A stretch of 64,000 nt of DNA from a plasmid. Location: the NCBI RefSeq assembly GCF_988243305.1, contig NZ_OZ547139.1; one strand, 5' to 3'. The position numbers are program-made. This document shows, piece after piece, positions 21,001 to 27,000 of this stretch. Every line of letters begins with the position of its first letter. Positions within the stretch are counted from its first letter, which is position 1.

Positions 21001-24000
21001 TCCAGCCTGGTAAAGCTCATCCTGTGCGAGTTTTATCTTAATGGCTTGCTCACGCAATTCCTGATCTACCAGCTGCTGTGCAGAGATTTGTTTTTCCTTT
21101 TCGCTTTGAGAGGCACACCCGGCAAGAGCTAACACAGAAACGGCCGCGAGGACCGTTTGCATTTTGATTTTCATTTCTTACTCCATTTTACTTCGGATTG
21201 AATTTGTCGTCGCTTTCACTTCTGAATTGCATTTCATTTTTACTATTATTTTGCTCACGAATCAAACGATGTTTCTCGTTTTGAGCATACGCCTGCTGAG
21301 CGGCATCTGTGAAGGTAATGCCCTGCGCGACAGGGAGATTGTGGTTCACAGCTGCATCGACGATACGATTACAGCACAGTTCCTTAAACTCGCCGTCACC
21401 ATCAACACGAACAGATTTGGCTTTACCAGCAATCGTTAATGCAATTGCAAGGTCAGCCGTTTTCTCTTTGTCGATTCCATTACTTTCTGTCAGCACAATA
21501 TGACCACGATCAGCCGCTACCGGTTTACCATCGCGCTCAAAGATAACAGTACCGTCTTTCAAAAGCCGTGGCTTGACACCATGACGTGCTGAGGCCATTA
21601 CGGCCACATCATCACGATCATGACTGGTGATGGCGTTAAAGGTACGGTTGAACCCGATCTGCTCAACCAGTTGCTGTTTATACTTCTCCTTCTTCCTGGA
21701 GGAATAGGCAAAGCCCCTCATTTGGCTGAGCGCTGCCTTATCACCCTTCAGTGCTTCCTGTTCGACCCACTCCCGGTAAGAAAGCCGTGGGTTAGCCGCC
21801 CTGAAGCCGTTGCGTTCTTCACGCAAGCTAAGACGCAGATTGGCAACCGCCTGCAGGCGTTTGAACTCAGCCAGGTTGTACATCAGCTTTCTGGTATGAG
21901 GATCTGAAACAGAATGCCGGACGTTATTTTTCACCAACCGGGTATGTTGGGCAATTTTCCGGTATTCATCGGCGATGCGATCCTTATCCGGAGAATATAT
22001 CGGTAAATTGTTCCGGTAGGCGCGATAGCGACCCTTGAGCAGCATTCTTTCTTCTGCGCGCTCAATTTTACGCTGCAGACGTTTATTGGCATCTCGACGA
22101 TAAGCACCAGGGGTATATGCGGTTTTAAATACCGATACTTTGGCCGGTTCAATATGTGAAGGCTGGTATTCACCAAAGCGCTCTTCCATCGACTTCAGGG
22201 TATATTGTGCCTTGTTAAATACCAGACTCGCCTTAACAGCCGTCTTCTGGTTTTGATGTTCGTGGGTAATGACGTAGCCCTTTTTCCCCTGTGCTTTTTC
22301 GACACGAAGACCGATGTCTGCAAATGTCTTATGCACATCATCCCAGCTTTTGGCTTCACGAAGTCCAGCTGAAACATGGATCAAGTTTTGACGACTACCG
22401 CCTACTTGTTCATCACCAACGATATAGCGATAGAGCGTTTCAACCCCCTCTTTATTCTCCATCTTGTTGATGCGATCGAGTGAGCGCCAGTTGCCCCGCT
22501 CTTTCTTACTGTGAGGGTTCCGGACAATCTGTTGACGGTCATTAACCACATATGCGCCGTTTGAATGGGACCAACCATTCTTCAATTCCAGTAAGCGGCA
22601 CGCCTGATGAAGAGTGTCTTTGGTAAAGCTCGATGAGGCGGCTTTATATGTCTGGGGATTGATGCGGTTGACAGCAACATGCACATGCAGGTTATCTGTA
22701 TCCCGGTGGATGGCTGCAACATACTGGTGATCGGACATGCCCATAGAGGCAAGAGTGAACTTCACCGAATCGAACACCTGATCGTCATTCGGCTTCTCAT
22801 AGTCTGGCCATGAGAGAACATAATGCATGACCGGGTCTTTGCAGCGTGTGTTTTGCTGGGAAACAGAATTCATTTCCTGTGCTGCACCATCGAGCGAGAA
22901 GGTATTGTACTGGCAGGTAACATCACCAACCACAACACGCTGTACACCTGGCTCAACATCCACCGGTGTGCTGATCACTTTCTGTTTACGGATAAGGTAA
23001 TTGTTTAACCCTTCGAACATATCCGATTTAACAGCTAAAACCGTCTCAGGAGTAGGCTGAACAGTATCAGTCAACTCCTGAGACGGCTTGTCTGCCATGT
23101 ACTTAATCAGCTGACCAAAGCTGGATTTTTTATCCCTTCGGCCCTCAATGATTTTAGGTATCACCATCCATCTCCTGTTGCAGTTTCTGTGCGGCCTTTT
23201 TGACCTCGATCAGAATCTCTGAATACTCCTTGCTATGAACCCCGGCACCTTCGTTAAACAGATGTTTTTGAAGGGCTGTTATCTTTACAAGAGCGGCAAG
23301 TGCATTGTAATTACCTTTCGATTGAATGCGCTTTCCAAGCCCAGATTTGATAAGATATTGACTAAGACTAAGCCCTGCTTCATGGGCCTTTTCGGTGAGT
23401 TTAGCTTTCACTTCTGTGGAACATCTCACCTGGATTCGATCGTCTGTTTTTCTGCTCTCGCTACGGCTCATCAGATAGCTAACCTCGTTAGGGGGTGTCG
23501 GGGCTTGCCCTGACCAAGACGTTTTTGGACGGCCGCCGCGTGTCGGCGGTACTCCAAAAACACATCTTGTCCCGTACTTAAATACCTCATTGAATTCTAC
23601 CATCGGCGAGGTTTGAAAGCCAGCAGCGAAGGGCCTGGCAGGCAGAGCAATTGAATCGTGCCGGGCATCATGTAAAATCACCCGAATAGCCTGGGTCGAT
23701 TTTCTCCGGTTCAGCATGGCGATTTTGACATTATTGGGAGGGCATATGCCTGCAAAAAAGAAAGCATTTTATAGCAGTGAGGACATCGGAAAATTCAAAA
23801 GCATTCTCGACAACTTGCCTGATGTGACGTCAGAAAGGCTTGAGAAAAAGCACGTACTCGACGAGCTTAAGTCTGACATTAAGAAGCTGAAAGATTCGAA
23901 AGGATATGAAGATAAAGAGATACTGAAATTCCTCAACGATGCGGGTTTTTCAGACGTTACATTACGTGATATCAAGGACATTACTGCCGGACGAGTTGGA

Positions 24001-27000
24001 AAAAAAAGAACCAGCAACAGCCGAAAAAAAATCACTGGAGTTGACGAAGAGCAGCGCACACAAAATAGCTCTACCGCTCAGAATCCTGACGCTTCAGGTC
24101 CGCAGTATTAACCTTCACCTTTCGCATATAGCATCCAACATTATGATATAGCTCCCGGCCTGACAGGCCGGGCATGGGTGCTGCCTGTTCGTGTAATTGA
24201 GCGTGCATACTTGTCACCGTTCCGGTGACAAGGGCACTCATTGGCCGGAAAAAAATTTCCGGTTCCGCTGCAATGCAGCGCTCAATGGTGCGCACGTTCA
24301 GGACCACGATCCGCCTTAGATCCCGATAAATTTACAGGGAAAGGAGTCCGGGCACGGATATTAAAAAGGGGCGCTTACAGCGCCCCTGAGACAGTTACAG
24401 ATTACATCGCGGCTTCTTTAATCCGCCGGAACACTGCCAACCAGAAACGGAAGTGATCCCATTGCGCTGCGTTCATCGGATGCGACTTTGTTTGCACTCC
24501 GTTTGCGACATCTTCAGCATAGTGTATAATCCACAACGGCATTTTGAACCTCACAATTTAAATTGCCTACCCAGCCGGATTGTTGGCGCAATCCGGCACC
24601 TTTTCTGGATTTCAATGATTCATCACCTCCTTCACATCCAGAACCAAAAAGTTATCGTTAGCGTGACGCTGCCCTACGATGAAAACAGCATCAAAGCGAC
24701 TTACTGCAACTACGTTTAGTTTGCCTGTAACCTCCTTTCCGTTGATGTTGATGGTTTCATAGAGCACCTCGTATTCCTTCGCAGAATCGGAATACTTCTG
24801 CTCTTTCCAGTTTTCTATCTGTGCGATCAGCTCCGGGGCCAGCTGCTGACGAACACGGTTTAGTTCATAGTCACGATTGAGAATCAGGCGGTAATCTTTA
24901 ATTAGCTGGTTGATAACCTTGTTCTCATCCCACTCGGATAGCAGTGGGCACTGTTCGCACTGTATAACACCATCTTTAATCAGTTTTTCTCTGATGCCAT
25001 TAACAACCTGTACAGCACTTAATTCACTGTCGTAGTTCTTTTTAATTTCATCGCTTCCCGGATATACCATAGCGACATCATTAAAATGGCTTACGATTAA
25101 TTCTGACACAATAAGGGTATAAACCTCATAAGGGTATAAGGTCGCCATAATATTCTCTCCACGTTATTTACAGAGCGTTTTAATCAATATCCACTTTTAA
25201 ACTTCACGATTATTATACGTCTAATGAGCCATTGCAGGCAAGAAAAAAATGCCCCTTTTCGAGGCATATTTTTAACCGGTTTACCACTCCCAAACGGTCA
25301 GTTCTGGCACCTGTTCTGCATCCCGGTCAAACCAAATCCAGTCGAACCCGGCACCATTTAACGCGGCTATATTATCCAAAGCACTTGCACTGATCCCCGC
25401 CCTGGCTAATTCCACACGCCATTGTTCAGTAGCAGAAATACGCAATATCCACCCATAGCGATTTTTCTCGATCCAGAACAAACCTTGACCGGACAAGTCA
25501 TCGTTACAGACCTTATCCAGTAGCTCCGCGTCTTCTTTTTTTACATGGCCGGTACTGACGACAGCCACCCGATATTGTTCACTGATATTCATACTCCCCC
25601 CCCTTCAGGGTTGGCGGCCCGCGCCCTGCGGGCCGTTCTAACTCAAATACTCACTGCGGGTAATCATTCATATCCGGGAACGGCGGTTCATCATGATTTT
25701 CAGTGCCTCCCAGACCTTCAGCACTGGTGTTACGTGGCCCAGCTCCCGGCAGCATCTGCATTTCGCCGTTATTATCGATCACAATTTCCTTGTTACTGCG
25801 CATTTTGCCGTCTGTCCCTTGCCATTTGTTATTACGAATGCGCCCGACAAAATACAGCATCATACCCTTTTTGAAGTACTTCCCAGCTGCTTCGGCCTTC
25901 TTTCCAAAAATGACAACATCATGCCATTCCGTTTCTTTTTGCTCCTTCCCTTCGTTGTCGCTGTAGCTGATTTCTGTAGCCAGCGTCAGGCTCGCAATGG
26001 CCGTTCCGTTTGGGGTGTAACGCACTTCTGCATCTTTGCCAGCACGCCCCATCAGAATCACTTTGTTTTCGCCACGTTTCCACATAATACACCTCATATA
26101 TTTGATGTTTATCAGTAAAAAATGGGAGGATTAAGGGGGATTTCTCCCCCTCTTTATCAGTAAAACTTCACGTTCGATTTCAGGGCTTTTTCAAAGTCTT
26201 TTACAAAGGAATTTGCAAAAGTGTAATCACGATGAATAAGCTGTTTTGTTTTAGGATTTCGCCACTCAACCTGCACTGATTCGGCTGAGTATTCGATCAC
26301 CTCGATTTGATTTTTTACACCGAGATAATCAGCAATTGCCATTACGGCATTCACTTTTTTTTGGTCTGCTTCTTTCATTTCAACTCCTTCGCCAGTCGGG
26401 GCGCTACCGCGAAAGACTCAACTGCCTTTCGATGTAATAATTATACGTCTAATGAGCCACTTTATCAACTCATCAGACGTATTTTTTTATTTAATTTTGT
26501 TCAAATATGAACATTTATTGATGCTAAATATCTAACATAATGGCTTGAATTTGGCCTTGTTGTAGGTGATCCGGTAGTCTTTGCACTTCCCGTTCTGCCG
26601 CAGGAACTCCAGCGAGACAACGTTAGCAGCGGCAAAATTGATGCACATAATGCTTTCCAGCGCCTCGAACAGGTCGGCCCCATTGGCAAGCGGAAACCAC
26701 AGATCGTTGTCGCTACCGCTTAATTTTTCATGCAGACAGAAATGCACAGCACGCACGCCGCCAAATTCCGTAACCAGCACCGTATTGCTGGCGCGAATAT
26801 CAGTTAGTGTTAACATTTTTCCCCCTGTCAGTATTGGCCCCCTCGCGGGGGCCGCCGTTTCAGTCAATCGCGCGGTAAATCAAACCGGCTTCGGCGTGCT
26901 GGTCGGCATATAATTTGAGTTTTTCCTGCTGGGTGATCAGCATGTCGCAGATGTGCTGATAGCCTTCTTCATGTGCGTGCCAGATCATGCGGTTCAGGGT

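What the first reader, a model, noticed from the sequence alone, without database searches (positions are those of the whole stretch)
23530..24600. Predicted oriT and first-entering segment with stacked hairpins
A MOBP-like nick motif (CACATCTTG/TCCCG) preceded by a short inverted repeat lies upstream of nikA. If nicking is on the + strand, the next 1 kb enters the recipient first. This segment carries three consecutive perfect inverted repeats (24154-24172, 24211-24231, 24245-24262), a 46-aa micro-ORF with SD, and a terminator, so it may hold a priming or early-expression site.
Basis: partly seen in the sequence, partly recalled or inferred. Interest (0 to 1): 0.4.

Follow-up and report, generated by a model that had tools for sequence, protein, structure and literature searches.

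The report
Known oriT, hairpins, hidden small gene
This stretch is the already-characterised transfer origin of IncL/M (pOXA-48 / pCTX-M3 type) resistance plasmids, followed by a known regulator gene, an exceptionally hairpin-rich spacer whose role is unproven, and a real but almost never annotated 46-codon gene that appears to be gated by an antisense RNA.

Summary
The window is an IncL/M plasmid. The sequence observations all hold. The nick motif and inverted repeat at 23521-23570 are the R64-type oriT. For pCTX-M3 a 106-bp fragment is mobilisable, and mutating ACATCTTGT abolishes self-transfer.

The hairpins are real. 24151-24300 is the most structured 150 nt of the + strand in the 64 kb. 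They occur only in IncL/M plasmids and are absent from sister lineages. Their stems are too short for an Frpo-type single-strand promoter. They lie between two convergent transcription units. A priming role is neither supported nor excluded.

The "micro-ORF" and "terminator" lie on the minus strand. The ORF is a genuine gene: dN/dS is 0.07-0.18, and relatives occur in IncFII/MPF_I, IncX4-size, about 60-kb and F-like plasmids.

Eleven lineages carry an opposite-strand promoter inside the small gene. The predicted RNA is about 70 nt and shows an anti-Shine-Dalgarno loop. I found no description of this module.

Overall, the oriT is known, and the small-gene/antisense pair is a new member of a known kind.

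The parts
21188..23167 (-). nikB, MOBP relaxase (659 aa)
   Evidence: Pfam Relaxase PF03432, E = 1.1e-29, and TraI_middle. Annotated as a TraI/MobA(P) relaxase in the identical record.
23154..23471 (-). nikA, ribbon-helix-helix relaxosome accessory protein (105 aa, start ATG at 23471)
   Evidence: Pfam NikA-like PF21983, E = 3.2e-18. NCBIfam MobA NF041264, E = 4.4e-31. The pCTX-M3 NikA is given as 105 aa.
23473..23578 (.). oriT; approximate equivalent of the 106-bp mobilisable pCTX-M3 fragment
   Evidence: The published primers oriTminDAatII, RnicSpe and FnicSpe match this sequence. Positions 23484-23575 are homologous to IncI1 oriT, to the sister lineage and to small oriT-only plasmids; 2343 plasmid records match.
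23497..23514 (.). Distal inverted repeat GTCGGGGC-TT-GCCCTGAC
   Evidence: Nearly invariant across the six aligned lineages in A4; one metagenomic locus differs at two positions. Forms a hairpin in the single-strand fold.
23521..23561 (.). Nick-proximal 18-nt inverted repeat, counterpart of the 17-bp repeat seen in the IncI1 oriT
   Evidence: Seven of 18 pairs show compensatory changes across six lineages, and 0 of 500 shuffles reach that. The IncI1 copy is 17 nt and 94% complementary.
23562..23570 (+). Nick region ACATCTTG|T; predicted nic between G23569 and T23570 on the transferred (+) strand
   Evidence: Invariant in IncL/M plasmids. IncI1 has ACATCCTG|T at the same distance from the repeat. 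Mutating this 9-mer abolishes pCTX-M3 self-transfer. The exact phosphodiester bond is inferred by homology only.
23651..23678 (+). Promoter-like site for orf35 (TTGAAT-16-TAAAAT)
   Evidence: Consensus scan, 9 of 12 matches. Invariant in seven IncL/M plasmids. Assignment to orf35 is inferred.
23746..24111 (+). orf35 (121 aa), YggA homologue and first gene of the leading region; negative regulator of nikA/nikB/traH
   Evidence: PMC6112013 and PMC7440800. tblastn finds it in 1185 plasmids. An IncI1 plasmid has a homologous 109-aa ORF in the same place. No Pfam or NCBIfam family matches.
24154..24172 (.). Hairpin 1, CCCGGCCTG-A-CAGGCCGGG
   Evidence: A metagenomic relative (L019) has a similar hairpin, CCCGG-CCTGT-CCGGG followed by T9, two nt after the stop I inferred for its orf35-like gene; that is a canonical terminator. 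Here no U-tract follows.
24210..24232 (.). Hairpin 2, CTTGTCACCG-TTC-CGGTGACAAG
   Evidence: The stem is invariant in 10 IncL/M plasmids.
24245..24262 (.). Hairpin 3, CCGGAAA-AAAA-TTTCCGG
   Evidence: Only the loop varies, including a 1-nt insertion in pOXA-48.
24266..24280 (.). Hairpin 4, CGCTGC-AAT-GCAGCG
   Evidence: The only change lies next to the loop.
24367..24387 (-). Intrinsic terminator of the minus-strand leading-region transcript
   Evidence: A 9-bp GC-rich stem followed by TTTTT. A GC-rich hairpin is predicted in the spacer of 5 of 6 diverged relatives, with different sequences; the sixth spacer was cut short by my frame choice.
24402..24542 (-). Small protein gene (46 codons plus stop; GAGG Shine-Dalgarno at 24552-24549)
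   Evidence: Variable columns by codon position are 13/12/32. dN/dS is 0.07-0.18 in the comparisons where dS could be estimated. 11 protein clusters in each of two searches. AlphaFold predicts two helices, pLDDT 91. tblastn finds it in 1191 plasmids; 39 of the 40 listed records carry no annotation there.
24503..24530 (+). Antisense promoter inside the small gene (TTGCGA-16-TATAAT)
   Evidence: Scan gives 10 of 12 matches. The same element sits at a fixed place in the CDS in 11 lineages. It is kept through invariant synonymous positions and NTA codons.
24537..24606 (+). Predicted cis-antisense RNA of about 70 nt. Stem-loop 1 is 24538-24567, with the anti-SD CCUC in its loop (24549-24556). Stem-loop 2 is 24574-24597, followed by UUUU.
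   Evidence: RNA fold z = -4.35. Six pairs show compensatory change. The two-hairpin architecture recurs in 10 of 11 lineages, with different stem-loop 2 sequences. Terminator-like by the scan. The ends are inferred, not mapped.
24612..25148 (-). Upstream minus-strand gene (178 aa, unknown function). The small gene is probably co-transcribed with it from the promoter-like site at 25241-25212.
   Evidence: No terminator-like site on the minus strand lies between the two genes.

Best explanation
The segment is the R64-type (MOBP, NikA/NikB) origin of transfer of an IncL/M plasmid, followed by the oriT-proximal end of its leading region.

**How it most likely works**
1. NikA binds the nick-proximal inverted repeat. 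NikB cuts the + strand after G23569. That strand leaves 5'->3' to the right, so nikAB and the tra genes enter last.
2. The first 0.55 kb to enter carries orf35, the published negative regulator of the nikAB-tra operon. It lies in the sense orientation on the transferred strand. It can therefore be transcribed only after the complementary strand has been made.
3. The region 24112-24400 is the junction between orf35 (+) and the last minus-strand leading-region transcript. The minus transcript stops at a canonical terminator (24387-24367). Hairpin 1 is probably a terminator-derived 3' structure for orf35. Hairpins 2-4 form an IncL/M-specific set of stable stem-loops. I take them most likely to be 3'-end structures and an insulator between convergent transcripts, in the manner of REP/BIME elements. 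This is the weakest step.
4. The 46-codon minus-strand ORF is a real gene. Its ribosome-binding site and start codon are covered by a roughly 70-nt antisense RNA. That RNA starts from a promoter inside the gene, on the other strand. Pairing through the CCUC loop should block translation of the small gene.

**Shown:** sequence homology, covariation, coding selection, and the published genetics of oriT and orf35.
**Inferred:** the exact nick position, the antisense transcript, and the role of the hairpins.
For: **Plasmid identity**
- The window is 100% identical to an IncL/M, MOBP, MPF_I plasmid.

**oriT**
- It aligns with IncI1 oriT and with that of sister lineages. The nick region is conserved and lies 8 nt after a repeat in which 7 of 18 pairs covary.
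- NikA and relaxase families are confirmed.
- Published work shows mobilisation of the 106-bp fragment, loss of self-transfer after nick-region mutation, and 23- to 80-fold derepression of nikA/nikB/traH in the orf35 mutant.
- Every annotated leading-region gene to the right of orf35, including ssb and the antirestriction gene, is on the minus strand.

**Convergent junction**
- The layout oriT, then a yggA/orf35-like gene, then hairpins or a terminator, then convergent genes recurs in IncI1 and in five other lineages.
- Relative L019 has a similar hairpin at the position of hairpin 1, followed by T9.

**Hairpins**
- They are an extreme outlier in structure.
- Within IncL/M plasmids, changes fall in loops and flanks. 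Two of 84 stem positions vary, both in innermost pairs, against 18 of 205 positions elsewhere (Fisher p = 0.07).

**Small gene**
- Variable columns by codon position are 13/12/32, and dN/dS is 0.07-0.18.
- The family appears in other leading regions, near NikA/relaxase, psiB-psiA-hok or taxA.

**Antisense RNA**
- Promoter and terminator scans both flag it.
- A promoter sits at a fixed position in the CDS in 11 lineages, and 10 of the 11 predicted RNAs fold into the same two hairpins with CCUC in the first loop.
- Six base pairs show compensatory change, and the fold z-score is -4.35.
Against: - The nick position has never been mapped for an IncL/M plasmid; the paper itself calls it putative.
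- None of hairpins 1-4 is followed by a U-tract on either strand, so they are not canonical terminators.
- Both strands fold equally well (-52.6 against -52.5 kcal/mol). Structure alone therefore cannot tell RNA, transferred-strand DNA or duplex palindromes apart.
- No compensatory change is available for the hairpins, because IncL/M plasmids are at least 95% identical here.
- Their position, 0.6 kb from nic on the entering strand, and their extreme stability would also fit a role in single-stranded DNA.
- The antisense RNA is a prediction only. In several lineages stem-loop 2 is followed by a weak U-tract.
- The promoter hexamers overlap conserved codons, so protein and promoter constraints are partly confounded.
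- The small protein has no known family or fold match.
Confidence: 0.6

Rival explanations
1. The hairpin cluster is a single-strand initiation signal. On the entering strand the stem-loops would be recognised by host PriA or DnaG, or by the plasmid primase, to lay the first primer for complementary-strand synthesis.
For: - It is the most structured stretch of the transferred strand in 64 kb.
- It lies 0.6-0.7 kb from nic in the first-entering DNA.
- It is present once in each of 907 IncL/M plasmids, and the stems are conserved.
- From my own knowledge, known ssi signals (G4-type, phiX-type) are clusters of two or three hairpins.
Against: - Sister plasmids with the same oriT and leading-region layout lack it, so it cannot be a general requirement of this transfer system.
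- There is no similarity to any phage sequence, microvirus origins included.
- A primer laid here would copy only the last 0.6 kb towards the 5' end.
- Folding shows no strand preference.
Confidence: 0.17
2. [quoted passage not shown] It would keep orf35 and oriT single-stranded for longer. That would delay production of the Orf35 repressor and of the antisense RNA in a new transconjugant.
For: - Stable stem-loops on the transferred strand stall conversion in F and are resolved by UvrD (bioRxiv 10.64898/2026.01.09.698686).
- The cluster folds at -52.6 kcal/mol over 190 nt.
- It lies between the transferred-strand-templated genes and orf35, which needs duplex DNA to be expressed.
Against: - This is pure analogy.
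- The F roadblock is a long promoter hairpin, whereas these are four short stems.
- The cluster is lineage-specific.
- No data exist for any IncL/M plasmid.
Confidence: 0.1
3. The hairpins are an Frpo-type single-stranded DNA promoter that drives early transcription leftwards from the entering strand.
For: - Strong secondary structure in a leading region.
- Hairpin 2 contains TTGTCA, which matches the TTGACA consensus at 5 of 6 positions.
Against: - The longest continuous stem is 10 bp, so no duplex can hold both a -35 and a -10 box.
- No promoter-like site is found at 24112-24400 on either strand.
- Anything transcribed leftwards would be antisense to orf35 and would run off at nic.
- No Rfam or BLAST relative exists.
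Confidence: 0.03
4. The small gene and its antisense RNA form a type I toxin-antitoxin (post-segregational killing) pair. The 46-aa product would be toxic and the unstable antisense RNA would be the antitoxin.
For: - It has the layout of a type I pair: a small ORF, and an antisense RNA covering the Shine-Dalgarno and start codon with the anti-SD sequence in an apical loop.
- It is plasmid-borne, and in one lineage it lies two genes from hok.
Against: - The protein is not hydrophobic. It is predicted as two amphipathic helices with no transmembrane stretch.
- It matches no type I toxin family in Pfam, and the RNA matches no antitoxin RNA in Rfam.
- The passages I read of the pOXA-48 Tn-seq study report one new type I pair at another locus (dqlB/agrB) and do not mention this one.
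Confidence: 0.2
5. Hairpins 1-4 act in duplex DNA as palindromic binding sites for regulators or nucleoid proteins.
For: - There are four perfect palindromes of 14-20 bp.
- Both strands are equivalent.
- The plasmid encodes H-NS and Hha-like proteins.
Against: - The four palindromes differ from one another, so four different dimeric proteins would be needed.
- No repeat of any of them was reported elsewhere in 23400-36000.
- H-NS and Hha do not recognise GC-rich palindromes (my own knowledge).
Confidence: 0.08

Closest known systems
oriT of IncI1 plasmid R64 / ColIb-P9 (NikA-NikB relaxosome, MOBP)
   Same: - A distal repeat GTCGGGGC..GCCCTGAC.
- A nick-proximal 17-18-nt inverted repeat ending 8 nt before the predicted nick.
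- A nick region ACATC(C/T)TG|TCCCG.
- nikA and nikB transcribed away from oriT, and a yggA/orf35 gene on the leading side.
- Weak cross-mobilisation between pCTX-M3 and ColIb-P9 is published.
   Different: - The core is 74% identical.
- The nick region has T where IncI1 has C.
- The arms of the proximal repeat differ in sequence, with compensatory changes.
- In IncL/M plasmids nikAB lie directly upstream of the tra operon.
- The IncI1 plasmid I examined (L026) shows neither the hairpin cluster nor the small gene at this position.
oriT and orf35 of IncM plasmid pCTX-M3 (Dmowski et al. 2018; 2020)
   Same: - The sequence is identical wherever the published primers allow a check.
- The neighbouring genes nikB, nikA and orf35 match those described for pCTX-M3.
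- The experiments on mobilisation, nick-region mutation and orf35 deletion apply directly.
   Different: The passages I read of those papers do not mention the hairpin cluster, the 46-codon gene or an antisense RNA downstream of orf35.
Frpo / ssi single-stranded DNA promoters of F and IncI1 leading regions; the ssp2 roadblock of F
   Same: - Strong secondary structure on the transferred strand in a leading region.
- The neighbouring genes are oriented so that the transferred strand is their template.
   Different: - There is no long stem holding -35 and -10 boxes.
- There is no sequence similarity.
- The cluster lies downstream of the leading genes, not upstream.
- The repeated promoter elements of this leading region also do not fold into long hairpins (z = -1.1 to -2.2).
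Cis-antisense control of small plasmid ORFs (hok/sok, symE/symR, FinP/traJ)
   Same: - A short antisense RNA with two stem-loops.
- A recognition loop (CUCA fits a YUNR turn) complementary to the Shine-Dalgarno.
- Overlap of the start codon, and a promoter inside or next to the target gene.
   Different: - There is no homology to any Rfam or Pfam member.
- The product is not a membrane peptide.
- No mok-like leader or fold-back mRNA element was identified.
- The function of the protein is unknown.
REP/BIME palindrome clusters between convergent genes in enterobacterial chromosomes
   Same: - Stacked GC-rich palindromes without U-tracts.
- They sit at the 3' ends of two convergent transcription units.
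- This placement suggests 3'-end protection or an insulator role.
   Different: - It is single-copy and found only on plasmids (907 plasmids, no E. coli chromosome).
- The four palindromes are unrelated to each other. From my own knowledge they also do not resemble the REP consensus.
- The comparison is an analogy only.

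Membership tests
R64-type (IncI1/IncL/M, MOBP NikAB) oriT | Conserved nick region of the form YATCCTG|Y on the transferred strand | tested here: met
   ACATCTTG|T at 23562-23570 aligns column for column with IncI1 ACATCCTG|T, with one C-to-T difference. It is invariant in IncL/M plasmids.
R64-type (IncI1/IncL/M, MOBP NikAB) oriT | A 17-18-nt inverted repeat whose right arm ends 8 nt before the nick (NikA-binding repeat A) | tested here: met
   Arms 23521-23538 and 23544-23561, so the right arm ends 8 nt before the predicted nick. Seven of 18 pairs are compensatory across six lineages, and 0 of 500 shuffles reach that. NikA binding itself was not tested.
R64-type (IncI1/IncL/M, MOBP NikAB) oriT | Adjacent genes for a NikA ribbon-helix-helix protein and a MOBP relaxase | tested here: met
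   PF21983, E = 3.2e-18. NF041264, 107 bits against a cut-off of 80. PF03432, E = 1.1e-29.
R64-type (IncI1/IncL/M, MOBP NikAB) oriT | The cloned fragment is mobilised in trans, and mutating the nick region abolishes transfer | not testable with these tools
   Published for pCTX-M3, whose primers match this sequence. The nick bond itself is only putative.
Frpo-type single-stranded DNA promoter | A long imperfect hairpin that rebuilds -35 and -10 boxes in duplex form | tested here: not met
   The longest stem is 10 bp. No promoter-like site lies at 24112-24400.
Frpo-type single-stranded DNA promoter | Lies upstream of genes for which the transferred strand is the template | tested here: not met
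   The cluster lies downstream of the last such gene and its terminator. Leftwards there is only the antisense of orf35, then nic.
Single-strand initiation (ssi) signal, G4 or phiX type | A cluster of stable hairpins on the strand to be copied | tested here: met
   z = -8.7 and the top outlier in 64 kb. The complementary strand folds equally well.
Single-strand initiation (ssi) signal, G4 or phiX type | Sequence relationship to known origins, or priming activity on SSB-coated single-stranded DNA | tested here: inconclusive
   No similarity to any of 50,697 phage records. ssi signals have no curated library here, and priming activity cannot be tested.
Type I toxin-antitoxin system | A small ORF whose translation start is covered by a cis-encoded antisense RNA | tested here: met
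   Coding selection. Antisense promoter, structure and covariation. The transcript itself is predicted, not observed.
Type I toxin-antitoxin system | A hydrophobic, membrane-active toxin, or homology to a known toxin family | tested here: not met
   The product is predicted as two amphipathic helices. No hit in Pfam, NCBIfam, PADLOC or PHROGs. No Rfam antitoxin RNA matches.
Type I toxin-antitoxin system | Toxicity of the ORF and rescue by the RNA | not testable with these tools
   Requires expression experiments.
MobC (the label some annotators give to orf35) | A match to the Pfam MobC mobilisation-protein family | tested here: not met
   Only two sub-threshold, unrelated Pfam hits with E of 0.014 or higher. 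No NCBIfam hit. The name is a legacy label.
Intrinsic (Rho-independent) terminator | A GC-rich stem-loop immediately followed by a U-tract | tested here: met
   This holds for 24387-24367 on the minus strand and for 24574-24597 on the plus strand. It does not hold for hairpins 1-4 on either strand.

The most novel reading that the evidence does not exclude
The oriT-proximal end of the leading region is a strand-asymmetric timing device.
- The small protein is encoded so that the entering strand is its template. It could therefore be made in the first minutes after entry.
- Its antisense RNA and the Orf35 repressor can be transcribed only after the complementary strand exists.
- In IncL/M plasmids the exceptionally stable hairpin cluster between them stalls complementary-strand synthesis. 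This would prolong that window, much as the ssp2 roadblock does in F.
- The widely conserved 42-49-aa protein would then be a previously unrecognised early establishment factor. It is shared by plasmids of the IncL/M type and of IncX4 and roughly 60-kb sizes, among them pOXA-48-type carbapenemase plasmids.
Probability: 0.12. Interest if true: 0.7.

Novelty: new member of a known kind. Interest (0 to 1): 0.4.

Why it matters
**The oriT adds nothing new.** It was cloned, mutated and turned into a mobilisation tool years ago.

**What may matter is what sits beside it.**
- IncL/M plasmids such as pOXA-48 are leading vehicles of carbapenem resistance.
- They carry, 1 kb from nic, a strongly constrained 46-codon gene. 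In 39 of the 40 listed plasmid records there is no annotation at that place.
- A conserved antisense RNA design accompanies it.
- Relatives of the gene occur in a further ~1,100 plasmids, including ~33-kb (IncX4-size) and ~60-kb E. coli plasmids and an F-like leading region (psiB-psiA-hok).
- If the protein acts during establishment, or is a toxin, it is a missing part of the leading-region toolkit and a possible target for blocking plasmid spread.

**The hairpin cluster is a clean test case.** It is the most structured segment of the transferred strand in the window. Priming or roadblock ideas developed on F could be tested on it in an IncL/M plasmid.

Tried and rejected
1. **Mobile repeat (MITE or REP).** Rejected. 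There is one copy per plasmid, only in IncL/M plasmids, and none on E. coli chromosomes.
2. **Hidden ORF across the hairpins** (78 aa on the minus strand at 24071-24307; 71 aa on the plus strand at 24241-24456). Rejected. pOXA-48 has a 1-nt insertion in the loop of hairpin 3 that would shift both frames. Neither ORF is annotated.
3. **A conserved cloverleaf enclosing hairpins 2-4.** The outer stems are not maintained. T-T and A-C mismatches appear in common variants. Only the local hairpins are conserved.
4. **Rfam.** Nothing above chance for the hairpins or for the antisense RNA.
5. **Phage BLAST for a G4-like origin.** Only a 21-nt chance match.
6. **Genome-collection scan with the stem-loop 2 pattern.** It returned one more IncL/M plasmid and one chance hit, so it added no diversity.
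7. **Long inverted repeats or Frpo-like folds at the repeated leading-region promoters.** None were found.
8. **Fold search with the small-protein model.** No match with E below 3.
9. **An error-ridden assembly (L023).** It inflated apparent variation in the stems and was excluded.
10. **My first register for the distal oriT repeat.** It was off by one column. Only the result for helix 2 is used.
11. **Furuya and Komano 1997 on the R64 oriT.** The paper could not be read. Statements about R64 nick mapping and NikA binding rest on my own knowledge and on the alignment with an IncI1 plasmid.

Full report
**What the window is.** The 2.1 kb around the finding is 100% identical to plasmid pEsST2350_SE_NDM. 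It is 96-99% identical to about 900 other plasmids typed IncL/M, MOBP, MPF_I, including pOXA-48. The gene order is nikB (21188-23167, -), nikA (23471-23154, -), a 275-bp gap, orf35 (23746-24111, +) and a 500-bp unannotated gap. Then comes a run of minus-strand leading-region genes: a 178-aa ORF, a DUF5983 protein, ssb, an antirestriction gene and others. NikA and NikB belong to their expected families.

**The observation.**
- The nick motif lies at 23561-23574, preceded by an 18-nt inverted repeat.
- Perfect inverted repeats lie at 24154-24172, 24210-24232 and 24245-24262, with a fourth at 24266-24280.
- The cluster is far beyond chance. The window has 70 perfect hairpins in 64 kb, and four of them fall within 120 nt here; no other place has more than two.
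- The segment folds 8.7 standard deviations better than shuffles.
- 24151-24300 is the most structured of 2554 sliding windows after correcting for GC, z = -6.1 against -3.5 for the next.
- The 46-codon ORF with its Shine-Dalgarno and the terminator are real, but both lie on the minus strand.

**The oriT is known.**
- Positions 23484-23575 align with the oriT region of an IncI1 plasmid (74% identity), of a sister lineage typed IncFII with MPF_I, and of small rep-only plasmids.
- Shared features are a distal repeat GTCGGGGC..GCCCTGAC, a nick-proximal 17-18-nt inverted repeat, and the sequence ACATC(C/T)TG|TCCCG starting right after that repeat.
- The proximal repeat changes sequence between lineages but keeps its pairing. 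Seven of 18 pairs are compensatory, no shuffle of 500 reaches that, and slid registers score lower.
- By homology the nick falls between G23569 and T23570 on the + strand, 8 nt after the repeat. As I recall, that is the spacing described for R64; I could not read the paper.
- For pCTX-M3, a 106-bp fragment is enough for mobilisation. Its primer sequences match the window from about 23473.
- Changing ACATCTTGT to CGAACTAGT abolishes self-transfer. [quoted passage not shown]
- The nick bond itself is still labelled putative.

**orf35.** This 121-aa protein is a homologue of R64 YggA. It is dispensable for transfer. Replacing it raises nikA, nikB and traH transcripts 23- to 80-fold and raises mobilisation about 100-fold. 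It matches no Pfam or NCBIfam family, so the label "MobC" used by some annotators is only a name. An IncI1 plasmid has a homologous 109-aa ORF in the same place. Because orf35 reads in the sense of the transferred strand, it can be transcribed only from duplex DNA. That is inference.

**The hairpin cluster.**
- It lies between the stop codon of orf35 and the minus-strand terminator at 24387-24367. This is the junction of two convergent transcription units.
- It occurs once in each of 907 plasmids, all matching at 90% identity or more, and on no E. coli chromosome.
- It has no relative among phages or in Rfam.
- Among ten IncL/M variants, 21 columns of this 289-nt stretch vary. Two lie in stems, both in the innermost pair next to a loop. 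The rest lie in loops and flanks (Fisher p = 0.07, few independent events).
- Larger stems that would enclose hairpins 2-4 are not maintained.
- In most of the diverged relatives with the same gene layout the spacer is a few tens of nt and holds little beyond a terminator hairpin. My crude frame choice made some of these lengths approximate.
- One relative (L019) has a spacer of about 200 nt. Two nt after the stop I inferred for its orf35-like gene it has CCCGG-CCTGT-CCGGG followed by T9, a canonical terminator that resembles hairpin 1.
- The IncI1 plasmid has a 9-bp perfect palindrome and a terminator-like imperfect repeat, AAAAGCCCCGG..CCAGGGCTTTT, in the equivalent spot.
- None of hairpins 1-4 is followed by a U-tract, and both strands fold equally well.

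**Reading of the hairpins.** I conclude that hairpin 1 is probably a terminator-derived 3' structure of orf35. Hairpins 2-4 are an IncL/M-specific addition. Most likely they act as 3'-end structures or an insulator between convergent transcripts, by analogy with REP/BIME clusters. This is the weakest link. A role on the entering single strand, either priming or a roadblock to complementary-strand synthesis as shown for F ssp2, is not excluded. An Frpo-type single-strand promoter is very unlikely. The stems are at most 10 bp, there are no -35/-10 boxes, and nothing useful lies downstream.

**The small gene is real.**
- Its peptide is 100% conserved in 754 plasmids, and 39 of the 40 listed records carry no annotation there.
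- Diverged 43-aa versions (35-45% identity) sit at the same position, last on the leading-region strand and convergent with an orf35-like gene, in six further lineages.
- Across those lineages, variable columns number 13, 12 and 32 at codon positions 1, 2 and 3. dN/dS is 0.07-0.18 with near-saturated synonymous change.
- A profile search of 1.8 billion representative proteins finds 11 clusters. Nine of them are 43-75 aa, including fused or truncated gene calls; two are long proteins with many short matched stretches.
- Their contexts are again leading regions: near NikA and a relaxase (L028), after psiB-psiA-hok (L030), and near taxA in an IncX4 plasmid (L014).
- A tblastn search with one of them hits a further 1121 plasmids, including many E. 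coli plasmids of about 33 kb and about 60 kb, almost all unannotated at that place.
- AlphaFold predicts two helices with pLDDT 91. No structural or family match exists.
- The window has a single copy.

**The antisense RNA.**
- On the + strand, inside the small gene, lies TTGCGA-16-TATAAT (24503-24530). Further on lies a GC-rich hairpin followed by TTTT (24574-24604). The consensus scans flag both.
- In all eleven lineages examined, a promoter of the form TTG(ACA/CAA/CGA), 16-17 nt, TAnnAT occupies the same place in the coding sequence.
- It is kept through otherwise unexpected invariance at synonymous sites: ATT at codon 5, NTA at codon 6 (ATA, CTA or GTA) and GCA at codon 13. Other third positions among the first 15 codons vary freely.
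- The predicted RNA of about 70 nt (24537-24606) folds into two stem-loops (z = -4.35).
- The first stem-loop presents CCUC, the complement of the Shine-Dalgarno, in its apical loop, and pairs across the start codon. The second differs in sequence between lineages but keeps its structure.
- Six pairs show compensatory change, and 10 of the 11 predicted RNAs fold in this way.
- This is the design of a cis-antisense translational repressor. I found no description of it. The pOXA-48 Tn-seq paper reports a different type I pair elsewhere on the plasmid.
- Whether the protein is a toxin is open. It lacks the hydrophobic character of typical type I toxins.

**Verdict.** The oriT is already known. 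The hairpins are a real, lineage-specific structural outlier of unproven function. The small-gene/antisense module is the item worth following up.

Noticed in passing
window 25212-35966 (copies near 25212, 26373, 27298, 27804, 28275, 28597, 28836, 29561, 30609, 30864, 34346, 35881): A repeated module sits upstream of leading-region minus-strand genes, in 6 to 10 copies depending on the segment. It has a promoter part (TTGATT-18-TATAAT on the minus strand) and a conserved 5' leader with two small hairpins that ends ...GCGCCCCGACTGGCGCAGGAGT just before the start codon. The copies do not fold into long Frpo-like hairpins (z = -1.1 to -2.2). They may form a shared transcriptional or translational control unit for the establishment genes.
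   Followed up: partly
L003 (CP082548.1, 1749 bp) 1544-1627, and hits H26-H30 and H212-H215: Rep-only plasmids of 1.7-3.2 kb, typed non-mobilizable, carry a copy of this oriT core. In L003, 34 nt from the right arm of the proximal repeat through the nick region are identical to IncL/M, including the T of ACATCTTG. They are probably mobilised by IncL/M helpers such as pOXA-48. The same principle was reported for pEC156 and the R64 oriT.
   Followed up: partly
window 23521-23561 compared with L009 (pKP4368) and L010 (R830b): Two IncL/M sublineages differ in the middle of the nick-proximal oriT repeat (GGACGGCCGCC/GGCGGTACTCC against GCGTCACTGCCGG/CCGGCGGTGTACC). The distal repeat and the nick region are identical in both. 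This could mark a difference in NikA specificity between sublineages.
   Followed up: no
window 23154-23717 (-): RefSeq annotates mobA/nikA as up to 187 aa. That reading starts upstream of oriT and runs across the nick region and the orf35 promoter. The 105-aa NikA starting at 23471 matches the pCTX-M3 protein and the Pfam domain, so the longer start is probably an over-extension.
   Followed up: partly
window 24334-24352 (+) and 30991-31009 (-): An exact 19-nt sequence, ACAGGGAAAGGAGTCCGGG (about 25 nt with its flanks), occurs twice in inverted orientation. About 0.02 matches are expected by chance. The second copy lies some 25 nt upstream of one of the repeated leading-region promoters. The first is an orphan between the hairpins and the terminator. 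Its function is unknown.
   Followed up: partly
window 24163, 24255, 24272, 24375: Several of the few substitutions among IncL/M variants hit hairpin loops or loop-closing positions. One is an A/T flip of the central base of the perfect palindrome at 24154-24172. This may reflect loop-specific mutation or template switching at quasi-palindromes.
   Followed up: no
L014 (IncX4 plasmid NZ_CP053212.1) about 3986-4114; L030 4001-4135; many E. coli plasmids of about 33 kb and about 60 kb: The small protein family has the motif ..LA(E/D)..(A/V).G...R(V/I)P.M...EW..F.(F/W)WL..(Y/L).GY. It occurs, with the same internal antisense promoter, in the IncX4 plasmid L014 and in an F-like leading region (psiB-psiA-hok). 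Protein-level matches also occur in many E. coli plasmids of about 33 kb and about 60 kb. The gene is almost never annotated.
   Followed up: partly
L023 (NZ_CP068331.1): This pOXA-48-like record shows scattered indels across the hairpin region, only 90% identity where all other records are at least 95%. This looks like uncorrected long-read error. It is also the only one of the 40 listed records with a CDS annotated over the small ORF.
   Followed up: no
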